DNA of 64,000 bases, from NCBI GenBank assembly GCA_004022145.1, contig RCNU01000010.1; one strand, given 5' to 3'. The notes under the pieces were generated by a model. That model searched no databases, had not been told where the DNA came from, and worked only from the letters and a program-made list of their open reading frames with translations. Numbering within the stretch: the stretch's first letter is position 1; the number at the start of each line of letters is the position of its first letter. This stretch comes from Paecilomyces variotii (Eukaryota). The translations under genes and the position numbers were made by a program. Below, one piece after another: positions 29,032 to 32,182 of this stretch.

Positions 29032-30111
29032 TTAATTGTCGTACTGTTCGGCAGCTAGATTCTTAGTCGTCCGCTCAGCTTCAAGTCGCGTATTCCTAAC
29101 AATCTCCCCAGCCGGTAGGATATCCTTCAGAAGCCCGACCCCCGTACCGGCGTAGGTCGTCATCCTCCCATCCGGACCCCATCCCGCATCTCCCTTCTTG
29201 ACCTCTTCCTCGTATAATCTCCTATTCTCCTCATCGGGCGTGCCTTTCTCTACCGCATCTACGTAGGTCCGATTAATGACTCCCCGTCCATTATACCGTT
29301 CAGGCCAAGACGTAAAACCTCTAACTTTGTCGTAAATCTTGGTACGGACCGTGCTGATACCCCCATCTGAAGCGCGGAGGAGTTCCATCTGATATCCATG
29401 TGAGATGTTGGCTTCCTTCGACGCAAGGAAACGAGTGCCCATGACGACTCCCGAAGCACCTAGGGCGAGCGACGCGGCTAAGCCGCGTCCATCTGTGATT
29501 CCACCGGCCGCGATCAAAGGAATATGGCCCTGATTGCGTTCCCGGAGTGTATCCTTGACTTCTGGCAGGAGGGCCATGACCGAGGAGGAGCGGGCGAGGC
29601 CATGTCCGCCAGCGTCGGAGCCCTGAATGACCAGGACGTCGGGCTGGAAGGACTCTGCCACTGAAACAGCCTCAGATACGCTGCCGACTTGTACCCATAT
29701 TTTGGTCCTGTTGTTAGTGGCAGAGCGGATTGCTTCAGCCCATGGGATGAGATCACCAGGTAGTGACGCCGGAGCGAAGAACCATACGGCGCAAGGTGTG
29801 TATCGTTTAATGGCGGCAACTGCTGTCGCTAAGTCTGCGCCCCAGTTGATGAAGCCGACACCGATGGGGAGGACATCTTTCTTGTCTCTCTGGTCAATTG
29901 GGGGATCTATTTTCGCGAGCAATTCCGCAGAGTGCTTTAGATTCGCTTCCAGATCTGAGAGGTCGAACCCCGCAGCTAGGAACCCCAGGCCGCCTGCTCG
30001 AGAGACTGCGACAGCTAATGGTGCTGTTGCGATGCGAAGCATCGGAGCGCAGGCGATCAGTGGTGTTTTGACCCATGGGTAGGCTGAGCGTAGTGCCGAT
30101 AGTGAAGCCAT
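29032..30111 (-). CDS. Nitronate monooxygenase / 2-nitropropane dioxygenase family FMN oxidoreductase, 359 aa
   Basis: Intronless ORF with PLIACAPM, LAVAVSRAGGLGFL, QGSDAGGHG (catalytic His region), IAAGGITDGRG, GVVMGTRFLAS. Confidence 0.93.
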   Translation of the reverse strand: MASLSALRSAYPWVKTPLIACAPMLRIATAPLAVAVSRAGGLGFLAAGFDLSDLEANLKHSAELLAKIDPPIDQRDKKDVLPIGVGFINWGADLATAVAAIKRYTPCAVWFFAPASLPGDLIPWAEAIRSATNNRTKIWVQVGSVSEAVSVAESFQPDVLVIQGSDAGGHGLARSSSVMALLPEVKDTLRERNQGHIPLIAAGGITDGRGLAASLALGASGVVMGTRFLASKEANISHGYQMELLRASDGGISTVRTKIYDKVRGFTSWPERYNGRGVINRTYVDAVEKGTPDEENRRLYEEEVKKGDAGWGPDGRMTTYAGTGVGLLKDILPAGEIVRNTRLEAERTTKNLAAEQYDN

Positions 30112-31025
30112 TGTGAGTTATGAGTTTCGCGGGGGTCTCTTAATAAGTGTTCTCTATAGAAAACGTATACATAGACACATGTTCCCTCAGGGGCGAAAGA
30201 GAGGATGAGAGTTGATCAGATCAAGACACTTTGCAAATCTCTTGGAGGGGTTCCAACTTGATTCTACCTAGGCTGAGTCACGGGTAAACACGGACAACGA
30301 GGTCGACCGGTGGAGCTTCAAGTTGACGTGCTGTGTTACCTTTTTCCGAGGAGCAAGAATAATACAGGCAGCGTTGCAACCCACAATGATGGCATGCTAG
30401 TGTCAGTGGATATCCAATAGTGATTCTCCAGTTAGACAATGGAAATGAAGATTTCCATCACCCAGGTTAGATATTCAGGGTTATTATTATTATCTCCTCG
30501 TCGAGAGTTCAAGTGTTCAAGATGATGACTGTTGTGCACCGCCTCAACCCCGGATCAAGAGGAAAGTTCGCTGTGGCTGAGAAGGTCACGTGGTGATTGT
30601 GATAGCGTCGGGAACAATCGTGCACTTATTTCCAGACTACAACTGTCGCCTGGATGAAAGAATGGTCCCGAGGCATCACAGTCAGTGACAGTTAGGGAGA
30701 TAAATCAATACTGTTCACTGGAGAAACCCTGTATATTGTGTATACTTCCTTATCACCGCCCACTTTATCCTATATCACTTGCATCTCTCAGTTTTGATCT
30801 TTTTTCCCGGTGCTCTTTTGCTCTACCAACGCCACCTTGAGGAGTCATCTGTTATTTGAGAATCTTCGCTATATACGACTTGTTATATCCCTTCTTCTTT
30901 TTGGTTATTTAAGGACTGAAAGATAGCGTCTTTTGGTTATCAGGGGGGTCATAGTCTCGTCCCGGCCCTGAGCAGCAGGCCCCTGGATTTGGAGGAGCTC
31001 CGACTCTGAAGAAGAAGCAGACAGA

Positions 31026-32182
31026 ATGAACGCCCCAGACAGGTAAGGAATCTAGTCTGGATTTTGTGCTAAGGCATTTTCATGTTATAACATCTTGATG
31101 AAGTCCGGAGCTCTTTCCCTTCTAATACTTTGTCGGTGTTCTGCCCTGGTTGGCTTGCACAGGATGGACTGTCCGCCTTTGGGGGAAATCACCTGTCTGG
31201 CAGGCGGGCGTTGCATGTCATGATATTGAGTCGTCGTTCTGCGTGATGGTGTTTGCAGATGTCAACTCTAACCTGCTCTCCGTTTCCCCCATCCTCTTCC
31301 AATCTTGTTTTGTACCCAGCTTCTTCCAAGCACAGTTCTTCCTATCCCCAAAGGAATAAGCACCTCTGCATCATTCACCATGTCGCCCAAGACCCCACCC
31401 AGTGGCTCTGGTCAGCAGTATATCATGCCTACTGACCAGGCTTATGCCCGCTACAAATGGCGCGTCCCTCCAACCTACCCTCCTGGCTCGAGCATCAAAG
31501 AAGTGGGCCGCGATGAGCAGCAGAGGTGGGCTCTCCATCTGGAGGGGTCTCCTGCCCTCTACATTTCTTCAGAGAGTGGATTTCTGGTTCTTGCGTTGAT
31601 TGCCATCTATCATCAATCTGTTTTCTACAACACCAAAGGTCCCAGAAAGACTGACGATGATGAAATCATAGGTTCGAGTCGTTCGTTCTGGGGAACGGTG
31701 AGAAGAAGGTCGAGGTTGAAACAGATACTCGTAAGGGTTCACTGTGGTCATCTAGCTAAACCCGAGGGCTGATGGTAACTCTTCTAGGTATTCCTTCGTC
31801 TGCCATCTTCACCTTTAACAAGGAAGATCATACTCTGGGTAACCTTATTCGCTCCCGTCTCCTCCAGAGTTCTCACGTCCTCTTTGCCGGTTACAAGGTC
31901 AGTAGATCCCGCACATTAATTCTCATGCTTGGCCCTCGCATGCTAGTGAAGTGGGCTGCTTGGCTAACTCGCACATCATAGGTGCCGCATCCCTTGGTCC
32001 CTAAGTTTGAGCTCCGCGTCCAGACTGATGGCGAGATCACCCCGAAGGAGGCGGTAATCACCGCCTGCCATGAGCTGGTCAAGGACCTCGGTATCTTCTC
32101 GCGTGAATTCACCAAGGAATACGAGCTGCGCAAGATGGTGGGTACCAGTCAGGGACAGAACGGCGCCCCGGATGGCATCTGA
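31026..32182 (+). CDS. RPB11: RNA polymerase II subunit Rpb11, 128 aa
   Basis: Exons 31026-31042, 31672-31730, 31788-31897, 31982-32182 give MNAPDRFESFVL...[17 protein letters not shown]...FAGYKVPHPL. Confidence 0.95.
31380..31525 (+). other. Candidate alternative coding exon of RPB11 inside intron 1
   Basis: CACC-ATG at 31380, open frame to a phase-2 donor AG|GTGGGC at 31525/31526, same phase and same junction Arg as canonical exon 1. Confidence 0.5.

What the first reader, a model, noticed from the sequence alone, without database searches (positions are those of the whole stretch)
31043..31671. Hidden phase-compatible coding exon in the unusually long first intron of RPB11
Seen: intron 1 is 629 nt, whereas most introns in this window are 50-110 nt. 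It holds an ATG in strong context (TCATTCACC-ATG, 31380) opening [56 protein letters not shown]. The donor has the same phase (2) and the same junction Arg as canonical exon 1 (MNAPD-AG|GTAAGG), so splicing to 31672 gives a 171-aa Rpb11 whose conserved MNAPD is replaced by 48 residues. A CT-rich tract upstream (31270-31350) could be an internal promoter. Inference: a second Pol II subunit isoform made from an alternative first exon.
Basis: partly seen in the sequence, partly recalled or inferred. Interest (0 to 1): 0.72.

Follow-up and report, generated by a model that had tools for sequence, protein, structure and literature searches.

The report
Conserved alternative first exon of RPB11
The long first intron of this fungus's RNA polymerase II subunit gene RPB11 holds a second protein-coding start exon that is kept across many Aspergillus-type moulds and would give a longer form of the subunit, though nobody has yet shown the longer form is made.

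Summary
Exon 1a (ATG 31026, MNAPD, donor after 31042), a 629-nt intron (31043-31671), and an internal ATG at 31380 opening 48 codons to an in-phase AG|GT donor after 31525.

Alone this is unremarkable: 260 of 2000 shuffled introns give as much. Comparison makes it real.
- **Not hidden.** The spliced 171-aa form is the GenBank model "RPB11a, putative" of Paecilomyces variotii No. 5.
- **Conserved.** A homologous peptide is the annotated N-terminus in 16 of 26 named Aspergillus/Monascus/Paecilomyces/Thermoascus species among the best 120 hits.
- **Independent homology.** A profile built only from the Aspergillus and Monascus peptides picks this intronic frame out of the whole six-frame window (E 9e-5, next 0.12).
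- **Sharp boundary.** In a sister lineage 52 of 53 residues match, then identity collapses five codons past the donor.
- **Codon usage** is coding-like.

Most likely RPB11 has two mutually exclusive first coding exons, giving 128-aa and 171-aa Rpb11. No transcript data were available. All 10 transcript-like contigs that show an MNAP-type start are canonical. The internal promoter is inferred only.

The parts
30760..30839 (+). CT-rich tract upstream of exon 1a; a possible core-promoter or transcription-start region for the canonical transcript (inferred)
   Evidence: 74% pyrimidine in an 80-nt window. It lies about 190-270 nt upstream of ATG 31026.
31026..31042 (+). Exon 1a coding part: ATG plus MNAPD plus 2 nt (phase 2), followed by donor GTAAGG
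   Evidence: Sequence read. MNAPD|R(F/Y)ES is the start of many fungal RPB11 proteins, including those from transcript-like short contigs.
31043..31671 (+). Intron 1 of the canonical transcript (629 nt); it contains exon 1b
   Evidence: GT at 31043 and AG at 31670-31671. No Rfam family matches inside it.
31270..31350 (+). CT-rich tract 30-110 nt upstream of the internal ATG; candidate internal promoter or start region (inferred, untested)
   Evidence: 75% pyrimidine, top 0.2% of 80-nt windows. There is no ATG between 31262 and 31380.
31380..31525 (+). Exon 1b coding part: ATG plus 48 codons plus 2 nt (phase 2)
   Evidence: 47 of 48 residues match the P. variotii No. 5 'RPB11a' protein. Homologous to the Aspergillus/Monascus N-termini (profile E 9e-5). 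Codon-usage score is 0.208 bits per codon against a coding mean of 0.129, and only 1.1-1.9% of open non-coding chunks reach it.
31526..31531 (+). Exon 1b donor GTGGGC (AG|GT)
   Evidence: The read-through translation of a sister lineage (P0002) is identical through five codons past the donor and then diverges. How well it fits the usual fungal donor consensus is judged only from recall.
31650..31655 (+). Branch-site-like ACTGAC, 17 nt before the shared acceptor
   Evidence: Sequence read. Recognising it as a fungal branch-site consensus is recalled knowledge.
31672..31730 (+). Exon 2, the common acceptor exon for both first exons
   Evidence: tblastn of P0004 onto the window matches 122 of 123 core residues.
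31788..31897 (+). Exon 3
31982..32182 (+). Exon 4, including the stop codon
   Evidence: The Pfam RNA_pol_L_2 and RNA_pol_L domains cover the core of P0004.

Best explanation
RPB11 of this Paecilomyces-type fungus has two mutually exclusive first coding exons that splice to the same exon 2 in the same phase.
- Exon 1a (31026-31042) gives the universal 128-aa Rpb11 that starts MNAPD.
- Exon 1b (31380-31525) lies inside the exon-1a intron. It has its own ATG and replaces those 5 residues with a 48-residue tail, giving a 171-aa Rpb11.
- The tail is mostly disordered and carries one short conserved helix motif (...P-x-D/E-x-A-Y-A-R-W/Y).

Shown here: the exon geometry, the homology and the maintained open frame of exon 1b across Aspergillus, Monascus and Paecilomyces, the conservation boundary at its donor, and its coding-like codon usage.

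Inferred: that exon 1b is transcribed from its own start region in the CT-rich tract 31270-31350, that the long protein is made, and that it enters Pol II. The canonical short form is probably the major one.
For: 1. **Database match.** The 48-residue peptide matched three proteins: a 171-aa NCBI protein 'RPB11a, putative [Paecilomyces variotii No. 5]' (P0004), and two read-through frames from unnamed contigs (P0001, P0002). P0004 is exactly exon 1b joined to exons 2-4.
2. **Species spread.** Searching with P0004 gave 1167 proteins at E<=1e-10, of which the best 120 were listed. Among the 26 named Aspergillus/Monascus/Paecilomyces/Thermoascus species in that list:
   - 16 carry a homologous N-terminal peptide joined at the same place;
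   - 3 carry only its first half;
   - 7 are annotated with MNAPD.
3. **Independent homology.** An HMM built from 15 Aspergillus/Monascus peptides, with no exon-2 residues and no Paecilomyces sequence, was run against all 1955 six-frame pieces of the window. The intron frame 31272-31769 was the top hit at E 9e-5; the next hit was at 0.12.
4. **Open frame maintained.** Identity of the window peptide to the Aspergillus and Monascus peptides is only 19-39%. Neutral substitution to about 30% identity leaves 48 codons stop-free in only about 16% of simulations.
5. **Boundary at the donor.** P0002 matches the window at 52 of 53 residues up to five codons past the donor, then 3 of 9. After that it aligns only in another frame, 8 of 15.
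6. **Codon usage.** The score is 0.208 bits per codon. True coding chunks average 0.129 (sd 0.119). Only 1.9% of 257 open off-frame or antisense chunks, and 1.1% of 266 open chunks outside long ORFs, reach it.
7. **Parallel layout.** Both first exons are preceded by a strong pyrimidine tract.
8. **Hint of a spliced transcript.** The A. fumigatus 167-aa long form (P0022, P0023) is also listed under the source 'lgn'. For Paecilomyces the same source gave only unspliced read-through frames. That suggests, but does not prove, a spliced cDNA-derived contig.
Against: - No RNA-seq, CAGE or proteomic data could be consulted for any species.
- Of 13 short-contig (under 2 kb, transcript-like) relatives in the best 120, 10 show an MNAP-type start (9 begin with it; one has MNAPD after an in-frame 5' leader). 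Two begin in other, apparently unspliced sequence. One has a long N-terminus of a different, lichen type. None carries the Eurotiales exon 1b.
- The P. variotii No. 5 model comes from Augustus plus BLAST without RNA (passages read). Gene finders are expected to miss a 17-nt first exon, so an annotated long form is not itself evidence of expression.
- Survivorship bias: only species whose frame is intact would be annotated this way. Three Fumigati species (A. udagawae, A. lentulus, A. thermomutatus) have models that leave the exon half-way.
- The donor GTGGGC is not a strong match to the usual fungal consensus (recalled).
- The geometry alone arises in 13% of shuffles.
- Without relatives' DNA, synonymous and non-synonymous change could not be separated.
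Confidence: 0.6

Rival explanations
1. The segment is a conserved non-coding element of the intron, such as an intronic promoter, an enhancer or an RNA element. It happens to be open, and ab initio gene finders adopt it because they cannot model the 17-nt MNAPD exon. Under this reading no long Rpb11 exists.
For: The No. 5 model is Augustus-only. All 10 transcript-like contigs that show an MNAP-type start are canonical. Other gene models invent unrelated starts from the same intron, for example P0032 and P0050, so the artefact mechanism is real. The geometry alone is common in shuffles.
Against: The frame stays open with in-frame length changes in 16 species of about ten lineages at 19-39% identity, against about 16% expected per lineage by neutral change. 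Substitutions in the motif are conservative: I/M/L/F, D/E, Y/F, W/Y. Codon usage sits in the top 1-2% of open non-coding chunks. No Rfam family matches.
Confidence: 0.2
2. Exon 1b is coding but has no promoter of its own. Transcripts from the upstream promoter sometimes splice exon 1a to an acceptor in the CT-rich tract. Exon 1b then becomes an internal exon, and MNAPD either continues in frame or ends as a short upstream ORF before ATG 31380.
For: The tract 31270-31350 also looks like a polypyrimidine tract, with a CTAAC-type motif at about 31267-31271 and AG dinucleotides at 31318-31319, 31329-31330 and 31334-31335. The frame upstream of the ATG is open from 31272.
Against: By my own reading, the two CAG acceptors (31319 and 31335) put MNAPD out of frame and into early stops. 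Only a weak AAG acceptor (31330) is in frame. Every annotated relative starts at a Met inside exon 1b, and the MSP start is shared by several lineages.
Confidence: 0.1
3. In this lineage exon 1b is the main or only first exon, and the MNAPD micro-exon is an unused relic.
For: Most listed Aspergillus reference annotations use the long form (16 of 26 species).
Against: In the window MNAPD has an intact ATG, an A at -3 and a GTAAGG donor. Transcript-like contigs from close relatives start with MNAPD (P0018, P0020, P0028, P0051). Thermoascus thermophilus, the named relative with the most similar core, is annotated with MNAPD (P0007). All nine solved Pol II Rpb11 sequences have only 3-5 residues before the aligned core.
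Confidence: 0.07
4. The ATG at 31380 opens an independent 130-aa protein read straight through the intron into exon 2 in another frame (31380-31772).
For: The frame is open for 130 codons. ORF callers list it from unnamed contigs (P0001, 99% identical).
Against: Conservation ends right after the donor. P0002 shifts frame and ends after 91 residues. No Pfam family matches. An ATG frame of 97 or more codons inside the intron arises in 232 of 2000 shuffles.
Confidence: 0.03

Closest known systems
GenBank/UniRef protein 'DNA-directed RNA polymerase II subunit RPB11a, putative [Paecilomyces variotii No. 5]', 171 aa (P0004)
   Same: It is exactly exon 1b joined to exons 2-4. 47 of 48 residues match in the peptide and 122 of 123 in the core.
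   Different: It is an Augustus/BLAST prediction without RNA support and omits the MNAPD exon, so it presents the long form as the only product. One paper's table reassigns the strain to P. formosus, so it is a sister species rather than the same organism.
Annotated 154-168-aa RPB11 of Aspergillus species and Monascus purpureus, for example A. fumigatus Af293 at 167 aa (P0023)
   Same: A homologous N-terminal peptide (MSP...P-x-E-x-AYARW...DQ-Q/P) joins at the same point before (F/Y)ESFVL.
   Different: Identity to the window peptide is only 19-39% and the lengths differ (29-45 residues). The junction residue can be S instead of R, and some models start at internal Mets. I found no statement that these species also keep an MNAPD exon, and their DNA could not be read here.
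Human POLR2J gene family isoforms (hRPB11a, b-alpha and others)
   Same: More than one Rpb11 protein form exists for one polymerase. One isoform is reported to have its own partner, ATF4 (PMC6981380; title and abstract seen in the listing, and cited in PMC13374769).
   Different: According to that abstract the human forms come from several genes and differ mainly in short C-terminal regions. Here one gene would give two N-termini through alternative first exons.
AC19/RPAC2, the Rpb11 paralogue of Pol I and Pol III
   Same: The layout is similar. The solved chain 4c2m_K is 142 aa and aligns to the Rpb11 core only from its residue 43, so about 40 residues precede the dimerisation domain.
   Different: It is a separate gene and a constitutive tail. 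No sequence similarity between the tails was tested, so this is a resemblance of layout only.
Alternative first exons or alternative promoters that give N-terminal isoforms in filamentous fungi (a general class)
   Same: Two start exons, each with its own ATG, share the downstream exons.
   Different: The class is documented from transcriptomes. I saw only the search listing, for example the Aspergillus oryzae RNA-seq survey PMC2926611. None of the listed titles or abstracts concerns RPB11.

Membership tests
Rpb11/RpoL subunit family (Pfam RNA_pol_L_2 PF13656, RNA_pol_L PF01193) | The dimerisation domain scores above Pfam's curated cut-off | tested here: met
   P0004, which matches 122 of 123 residues of the window's exons 2-4, scores 102 bits against a cut-off of 27 for PF13656 and 42.4 against 24 for PF01193. 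Nine solved Pol II Rpb11 sequences match at E 2.8e-31 to 5.2e-22.
Rpb11/RpoL subunit family | A canonical short N-terminus (MNAP-type, only a few residues before the core) | tested here: met
   Exon 1a encodes MNAPD with a consensus-like donor. Solved chains align from their residue 4-6.
Alternative first coding exon (alternative-promoter N-terminal isoform) | Two separate first exons, each with its own ATG, and donors in the same phase onto one acceptor | tested here: met
   Exons 31026-31042 and 31380-31525 are both phase 2, and the acceptor is at 31671.
Alternative first coding exon (alternative-promoter N-terminal isoform) | The coding capacity of the second exon is kept by selection | tested here: met
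   16 of 26 named species have an intact homologous frame. Profile E is 9e-5. There is a conservation boundary at the donor and coding-like codon usage. Nucleotide-level dN/dS was not possible.
Alternative first coding exon (alternative-promoter N-terminal isoform) | Transcripts carry each junction (31042^31672 and 31525^31672) | not testable with these tools
   No read or transcript data were available. Indirectly, canonical starts appear in 10 of 13 short-contig relatives. The 'lgn' source tag on the A. fumigatus long form is only a hint.
Alternative first coding exon (alternative-promoter N-terminal isoform) | A separate transcription start or promoter for the second exon | not testable with these tools
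   There is only a 75% pyrimidine tract at 31270-31350, and no ATG between 31262 and 31380.
Intron-hosted small RNA (snoRNA and similar), a usual reason for a long fungal intron | A match to a described RNA family inside the intron | tested here: not met
   No Rfam match lies in 31043-31671 at E<=5, and none in the whole window at gathering scores. Undescribed families cannot be excluded.

The most novel reading that the evidence does not exclude
Pol II of Eurotiales moulds exists in two flavours that differ at the Rpb11 N-terminus and are made from two promoters of one gene. The long form's conserved short helix (P-x-E-x-AYARW) would be a docking site for a lineage-specific regulator or assembly factor, used in particular conditions or developmental stages. 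Onygenales, Talaromyces, Penicillium, Dothideomycetes and lichen fungi each show their own conserved long N-termini, so the same arrangement may hold across most Pezizomycotina.
Probability: 0.25. Interest if true: 0.7.

Novelty: new member of a known kind. Interest (0 to 1): 0.5.

Why it matters
Rpb11 is a core assembly subunit of RNA polymerase II and is usually treated as invariant. If the long form is made, filamentous fungi would carry a conserved second version of a core Pol II subunit, including industrial species and the opportunistic pathogen Aspergillus fumigatus. That would open the question of polymerase heterogeneity in a tractable system.

It also matters for annotation. Reference proteomes currently split between a 126-129-aa and a 154-171-aa RPB11 for closely related species, and sometimes for the same species (A. 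terreus). The split probably arises because each gene model can show only one of the two first exons. Knowing that both exist would correct orthology tables and N-terminal tagging designs.

Tried and rejected
- **Intronic RNA gene.** Rfam found nothing in the intron.
- **Independent 130-aa ORF.** Rejected, because conservation stops at the donor and the frame shifts in P0002.
- **Origin by tandem duplication of the exon-1/exon-2 start.** A 15-nt similarity (31228-31241 against 31676-31690, found) is reached by 37 of 500 shuffles, so it is not significant.
- **Deep homology to other lineages' long N-termini.** hhalign of the Aspergillus/Paecilomyces peptide against those of Onygenales, Talaromyces, Penicillium, Dothideomycetes and lichen fungi gave probabilities of 0.1-1.9% (E 0.025-0.57). 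Homology is not shown.
- **Known protein family for the peptide.** Pfam gave only a sub-threshold chance hit (E 0.19).
- **Relatives' DNA.** No fungal genome collection was available.
- **Cluster membership.** The sources and contigs behind the clusters of P0004, P0007, P0022 and P0023 therefore stayed unchecked.
- **Short proteins.** A search for proteins of 26-84 aa matching the peptide found none.
- **Structure.** AlphaFold2 on the 171-aa form gave a confident core and a low-confidence tail (pLDDT under 50 for residues 1-14 and 28-56, and a weak helix at 17-26). This fits disorder but says nothing about function. No fold search was run.
- **Literature.** Searches with 'RPB11 + Aspergillus + alternative', 'Rpb11 + N-terminal extension', 'alternative first exon + filamentous fungi' and 'RPB11a' found no description of a fungal long Rpb11. 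In the one review read by passages (PMC13374769), the phrase 'N-terminal extension' occurs once, for AC40, and 'fungi' does not occur.
Full report
**1. The observation**

The sequence is as described.
- The canonical start ATG is at 31026. Its coding part (31026-31042) reads MNAPD plus two bases and is followed by the donor GTAAGG.
- The intron runs 31043-31671 (629 nt). It has an ACTGAC branch-site-like motif at 31650-31655 and the acceptor AG at 31670-31671.
- Exon 2 starts at 31672, so the split codon is AG|G (Arg), followed by FESFVLG.
- The remaining exons are 31672-31730, 31788-31897 and 31982-32182. The other two introns are 57 and 84 nt.
- Inside the long intron an ATG at 31380 (context CACC-ATG) opens 48 codons plus two bases. 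Then comes AG|GTGGGC, in the same phase.
- The exon sums give 128 aa for the canonical protein and 171 aa for the alternative one.
- The tract 31270-31350 is 75% pyrimidine, a level reached by 0.2% of 80-nt windows. A similar tract (74%) lies at 30760-30839 ahead of the canonical start.

**2. Is the geometry beyond chance?**

No.
- The real intron holds 22 combinations of an ATG with an in-phase GT.
- Of 2000 dinucleotide-preserving shuffles, 260 hold an ATG frame of at least 48 codons ending at an in-phase GTRNG donor. With any GT the count is 1146.
- 145 shuffles hold an open frame as long as the real one (133 codons inside the intron), and 232 hold an ATG frame of 97 or more codons.

**3. 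What relatives show**

*The read-through frame.* I searched the read-through frame from the ATG (31380-31772, 130 aa) against 1.84 billion cluster representatives. There were three hits:
- P0001: 130 aa, 99% identical, the same read-through frame from an unnamed contig.
- P0002: 91 aa.
- P0003: a 1775-aa protein that matches only the hydrophobic read-through part in ten stretches. I disregard it.

P0002 is informative. It equals the window at 52 of 53 residues, up to five codons past the predicted donor. It then drops to 3 of 9, and its last 15 residues align only in a different frame (8 of 15). Conservation therefore stops just past the proposed donor, and the rest of the intron has diverged, with at least one frame shift.

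*The 48-residue peptide.* A word-based search with the peptide among longer proteins returned P0001, P0002 and P0004. P0004 is a 171-aa NCBI/UniRef protein named 'DNA-directed RNA polymerase II subunit RPB11a, putative [Paecilomyces variotii No. 5]'.
- It is exactly exon 1b joined to exons 2-4, so the 'hidden' isoform is already a database protein.
- It matches the window at 47 of 48 residues in the peptide and 122 of 123 in the core.
- That genome was annotated with Augustus plus BLAST, and RNA is not mentioned in the announcement (passages read). The model is therefore a prediction.
- A later paper's table reassigns the strain to P. formosus (passages read). The comparison is thus between sister species.

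*The wider family.* Searching with P0004 gave 1167 proteins at E<=1e-10 among 1241 candidates, with the best 120 listed. I cut all 120 at the conserved start of exon 2. Among the 26 named species of Aspergillus, Monascus, Paecilomyces and Thermoascus:

| Annotated N-terminus | Species | Which |
|---|---|---|
| Peptide homologous to exon 1b, joined at the same point | 16 | P. variotii No. 5, M. purpureus, A. heteromorphus, ibericus, rambellii, campestris, egyptiacus, clavatus, hiratsukae, tanneri, tubingensis, fumigatus, felis, fischeri, nanangensis, terreus |
| Only the first half of the peptide, then other intron-derived sequence | 3 | A. thermomutatus, udagawae, lentulus |
| MNAPD | 7 | T. 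thermophilus, A. wentii, melleus, floccosus, ruber, chevalieri, glaucus |

A. terreus has both a long model and a third, unrelated start.

The aligned peptides share several features:
- a start M-S-P in several lineages;
- a core (Y/F)(I/M)(M/L)P-x-(D/E)-x-A-Y-A-R-(W/Y);
- a G-G-S-R stretch;
- an end S-(T/S)-(I/V)-N-V-x-H-D-Q-Q-P before the junction residue.

Length differences are all in frame, and the substitutions are conservative.

**4. Is that homology real and independent of the conserved core?**

Yes for the first half. A profile was built only from the 15 Aspergillus and Monascus peptides, with no exon-2 residues and no Paecilomyces sequence. It was run against all 1955 stop-to-stop pieces of the six-frame window. 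The intron frame 31272-31769 was the best hit at E 9e-5, aligned over S-P...[13 protein letters not shown]. The next hit had E 0.12.

Identity of the window peptide to the Aspergillus and Monascus peptides is 19-39%. In a substitution-only neutral simulation, reaching about 30% identity leaves the 48 codons stop-free in about 16% of runs. Indels, the start codon and the donor are not even considered there. Keeping the frame in some ten separate lineages is therefore hard to explain without selection on the reading frame.

The caveat is survivorship. A species with a broken frame would be annotated differently, and I could not read the DNA of the 7 canonical and 3 half-model species.

**5. Signals within the window**

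A codon-usage log-likelihood was trained on eleven long ORFs of the window and normalised over sense codons, so that mere openness earns nothing.

| Sequence class | n | Score (bits per codon) or share reaching 0.208 |
|---|---|---|
| Exon 1b, in frame | 1 | 0.208 |
| Exon 1b, other two frames | 1 each | -0.10 and -0.17 |
| Real coding chunks of 48 codons | 130 | mean 0.129 (sd 0.119) |
| Open off-frame or antisense chunks | 257 | 1.9% reach 0.208 |
| Open chunks outside long ORFs | 266 | 1.1% reach 0.208 |

Other checks gave little.
- No Rfam family lies in the intron, and Pfam knows no family for the peptide.
- AlphaFold2 on the 171-aa form gives a confident core and a low-confidence tail, with one weak helix at residues 17-26, the conserved motif.
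- All nine solved Pol II Rpb11 sequences are 115-123 aa and align from their residue 4-6, so none has such a tail. The Pol I/III paralogue RPAC2 has about 40 residues before the core.

**6. Evidence on expression**

This is the weak point. Thirteen entries among the best 120 come from contigs under 2 kb and are probably transcripts.

| N-terminus | Count | Entries |
|---|---|---|
| Begins with an MNAP-type start | 9 | P0018, P0020, P0043, P0051, P0061, P0062, P0072, P0113, P0123 |
| MNAPD after an in-frame leader | 1 | P0028 |
| Begins in other, apparently unspliced sequence | 2 | P0054, P0078 |
| Long N-terminus of the lichen type, ending A-E-D-N-V-P-N-R | 1 | P0066 |
| Eurotiales exon 1b | 0 | none |

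The lichen-type ending looks like an extended version of the canonical exon rather than a second exon.

The canonical exon is thus the one seen in transcripts and is probably the major form. One hint points the other way. The A. fumigatus 167-aa long form (P0022, P0023) lists the assembled-reads source 'lgn'. For Paecilomyces that source produced only unspliced read-through frames, so a spliced long form there suggests a cDNA-derived contig.

**7. Most likely mechanism**

RPB11 has two mutually exclusive first coding exons, 1a and 1b. Each is preceded by a pyrimidine-rich tract, and both splice in phase 2 to exon 2.
- Exon 1a gives the universal short Rpb11.
- Exon 1b gives a form with a 48-residue, mostly disordered tail that carries one conserved helix.

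I put 0.6 on this and about 0.8 on exon 1b being under coding constraint at all. The rivals:

| Rival | Confidence |
|---|---|
| A conserved non-coding element adopted by gene finders | 0.2 |
| Inclusion of exon 1b from the upstream promoter rather than from its own promoter. By my reading the two CAG acceptors put MNAPD out of frame, and only a weak AAG acceptor is in frame | 0.1 |
| Exon 1b as the sole first exon | 0.07 |
| An independent 130-aa protein | 0.03 |

**8. Comparison with what is known, and novelty**

- The long protein is already in GenBank for the sister species and for many aspergilli, so the exon is not new as a sequence.
- I did not find it described that the long and short annotations are two first exons of one gene, or that the second is conserved as coding. 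The four literature searches and the passages of one review of alpha-like subunits do not mention it.
- According to one abstract (listing), human Rpb11 isoforms come from a gene family and differ at the C-terminus.
- I class this as a new member of a known kind, the alternative first exon.
- Other orders have their own conserved long N-termini: Onygenales, Talaromyces, Penicillium, Dothideomycetes and lichen fungi. Homology to the Aspergillus/Paecilomyces peptide was not shown (hhalign probability at most 1.9%).

**9. What stayed unchecked**

- Nucleotide alignments and dN/dS, because no fungal genome collection was available. The single scan of prokaryotic genomes gave only L001.
- Metagenome and viral contigs, which were closed.
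- Any RNA-seq, CAGE or proteome data.

Noticed in passing
window 30517-30582 (+): A C/D-box-snoRNA-like stretch in the divergent promoter region upstream of RPB11. It has a GATGATGA C-box-like motif at its 5' end and CTGA at its 3' end. The Rfam hits are weak and sub-threshold: sR23 at 15 bits (E 1.5) and sR1 at 13.1 bits (E 3.7), against a gathering score of 45. I saw no convincing terminal stem by eye.
   Followed up: partly
window 31655-31662 (+): A GATGATGA (C-box-like) motif lies 9 nt before the shared acceptor of intron 1, just after the ACTGAC branch-site-like motif. No D box follows within the intron, so it is probably coincidence.
   Followed up: no
proteins P0039-P0041, P0044-P0046, P0048, P0053: RPB11 models of Onygenales (Trichophyton, Nannizzia, Microsporum, Histoplasma, Emergomyces, Emmonsia, Polytolypa, Myotisia) share their own strongly conserved long N-terminus (F-F-D-S-S-x-A-S-Y-R-Q-N-P-C-x-T-x-V-R-P-H-x-D) before the same junction. 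Other Onygenales and a transcript-like contig start with MNAP. A parallel two-exon arrangement may exist there.
   Followed up: partly
proteins P0066, P0084, P0088 and other lichen-fungus models: Lichen-forming fungi have long RPB11 N-termini ending A-E-(E/D)-N-V-P-N-R before FELFLLG. This resembles the canonical MNAPDR with the Met replaced, so the canonical first exon seems to be extended upstream rather than replaced. P0066 comes from a 1129-nt, transcript-like contig.
   Followed up: partly
proteins P0033, P0035, P0042, P0050: Models for A. thermomutatus, A. udagawae and A. lentulus follow the exon-1b peptide only to about ...W-I-H-A-A-G-G and then switch to other intron-derived sequence. 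Either exon 1b is disrupted in these three Fumigati species or the gene finder chose another path. This is worth checking at the DNA level.
   Followed up: no
L001 3001-3141 (contig RGCF01000032.1, labelled a Bacteroidetes MAG): A eukaryote-type RPB11 fragment (49% identity to residues 76-118 of P0004) sits on a 26-kb contig of a bacterial metagenome-assembled genome. It probably reflects eukaryotic contamination of the bin.
   Followed up: no
window 29035-30117 (-): A 361-codon open frame lies on the opposite strand, about 900 nt upstream of RPB11, so the two genes may share a divergent promoter region. I did not identify the protein.
   Followed up: no
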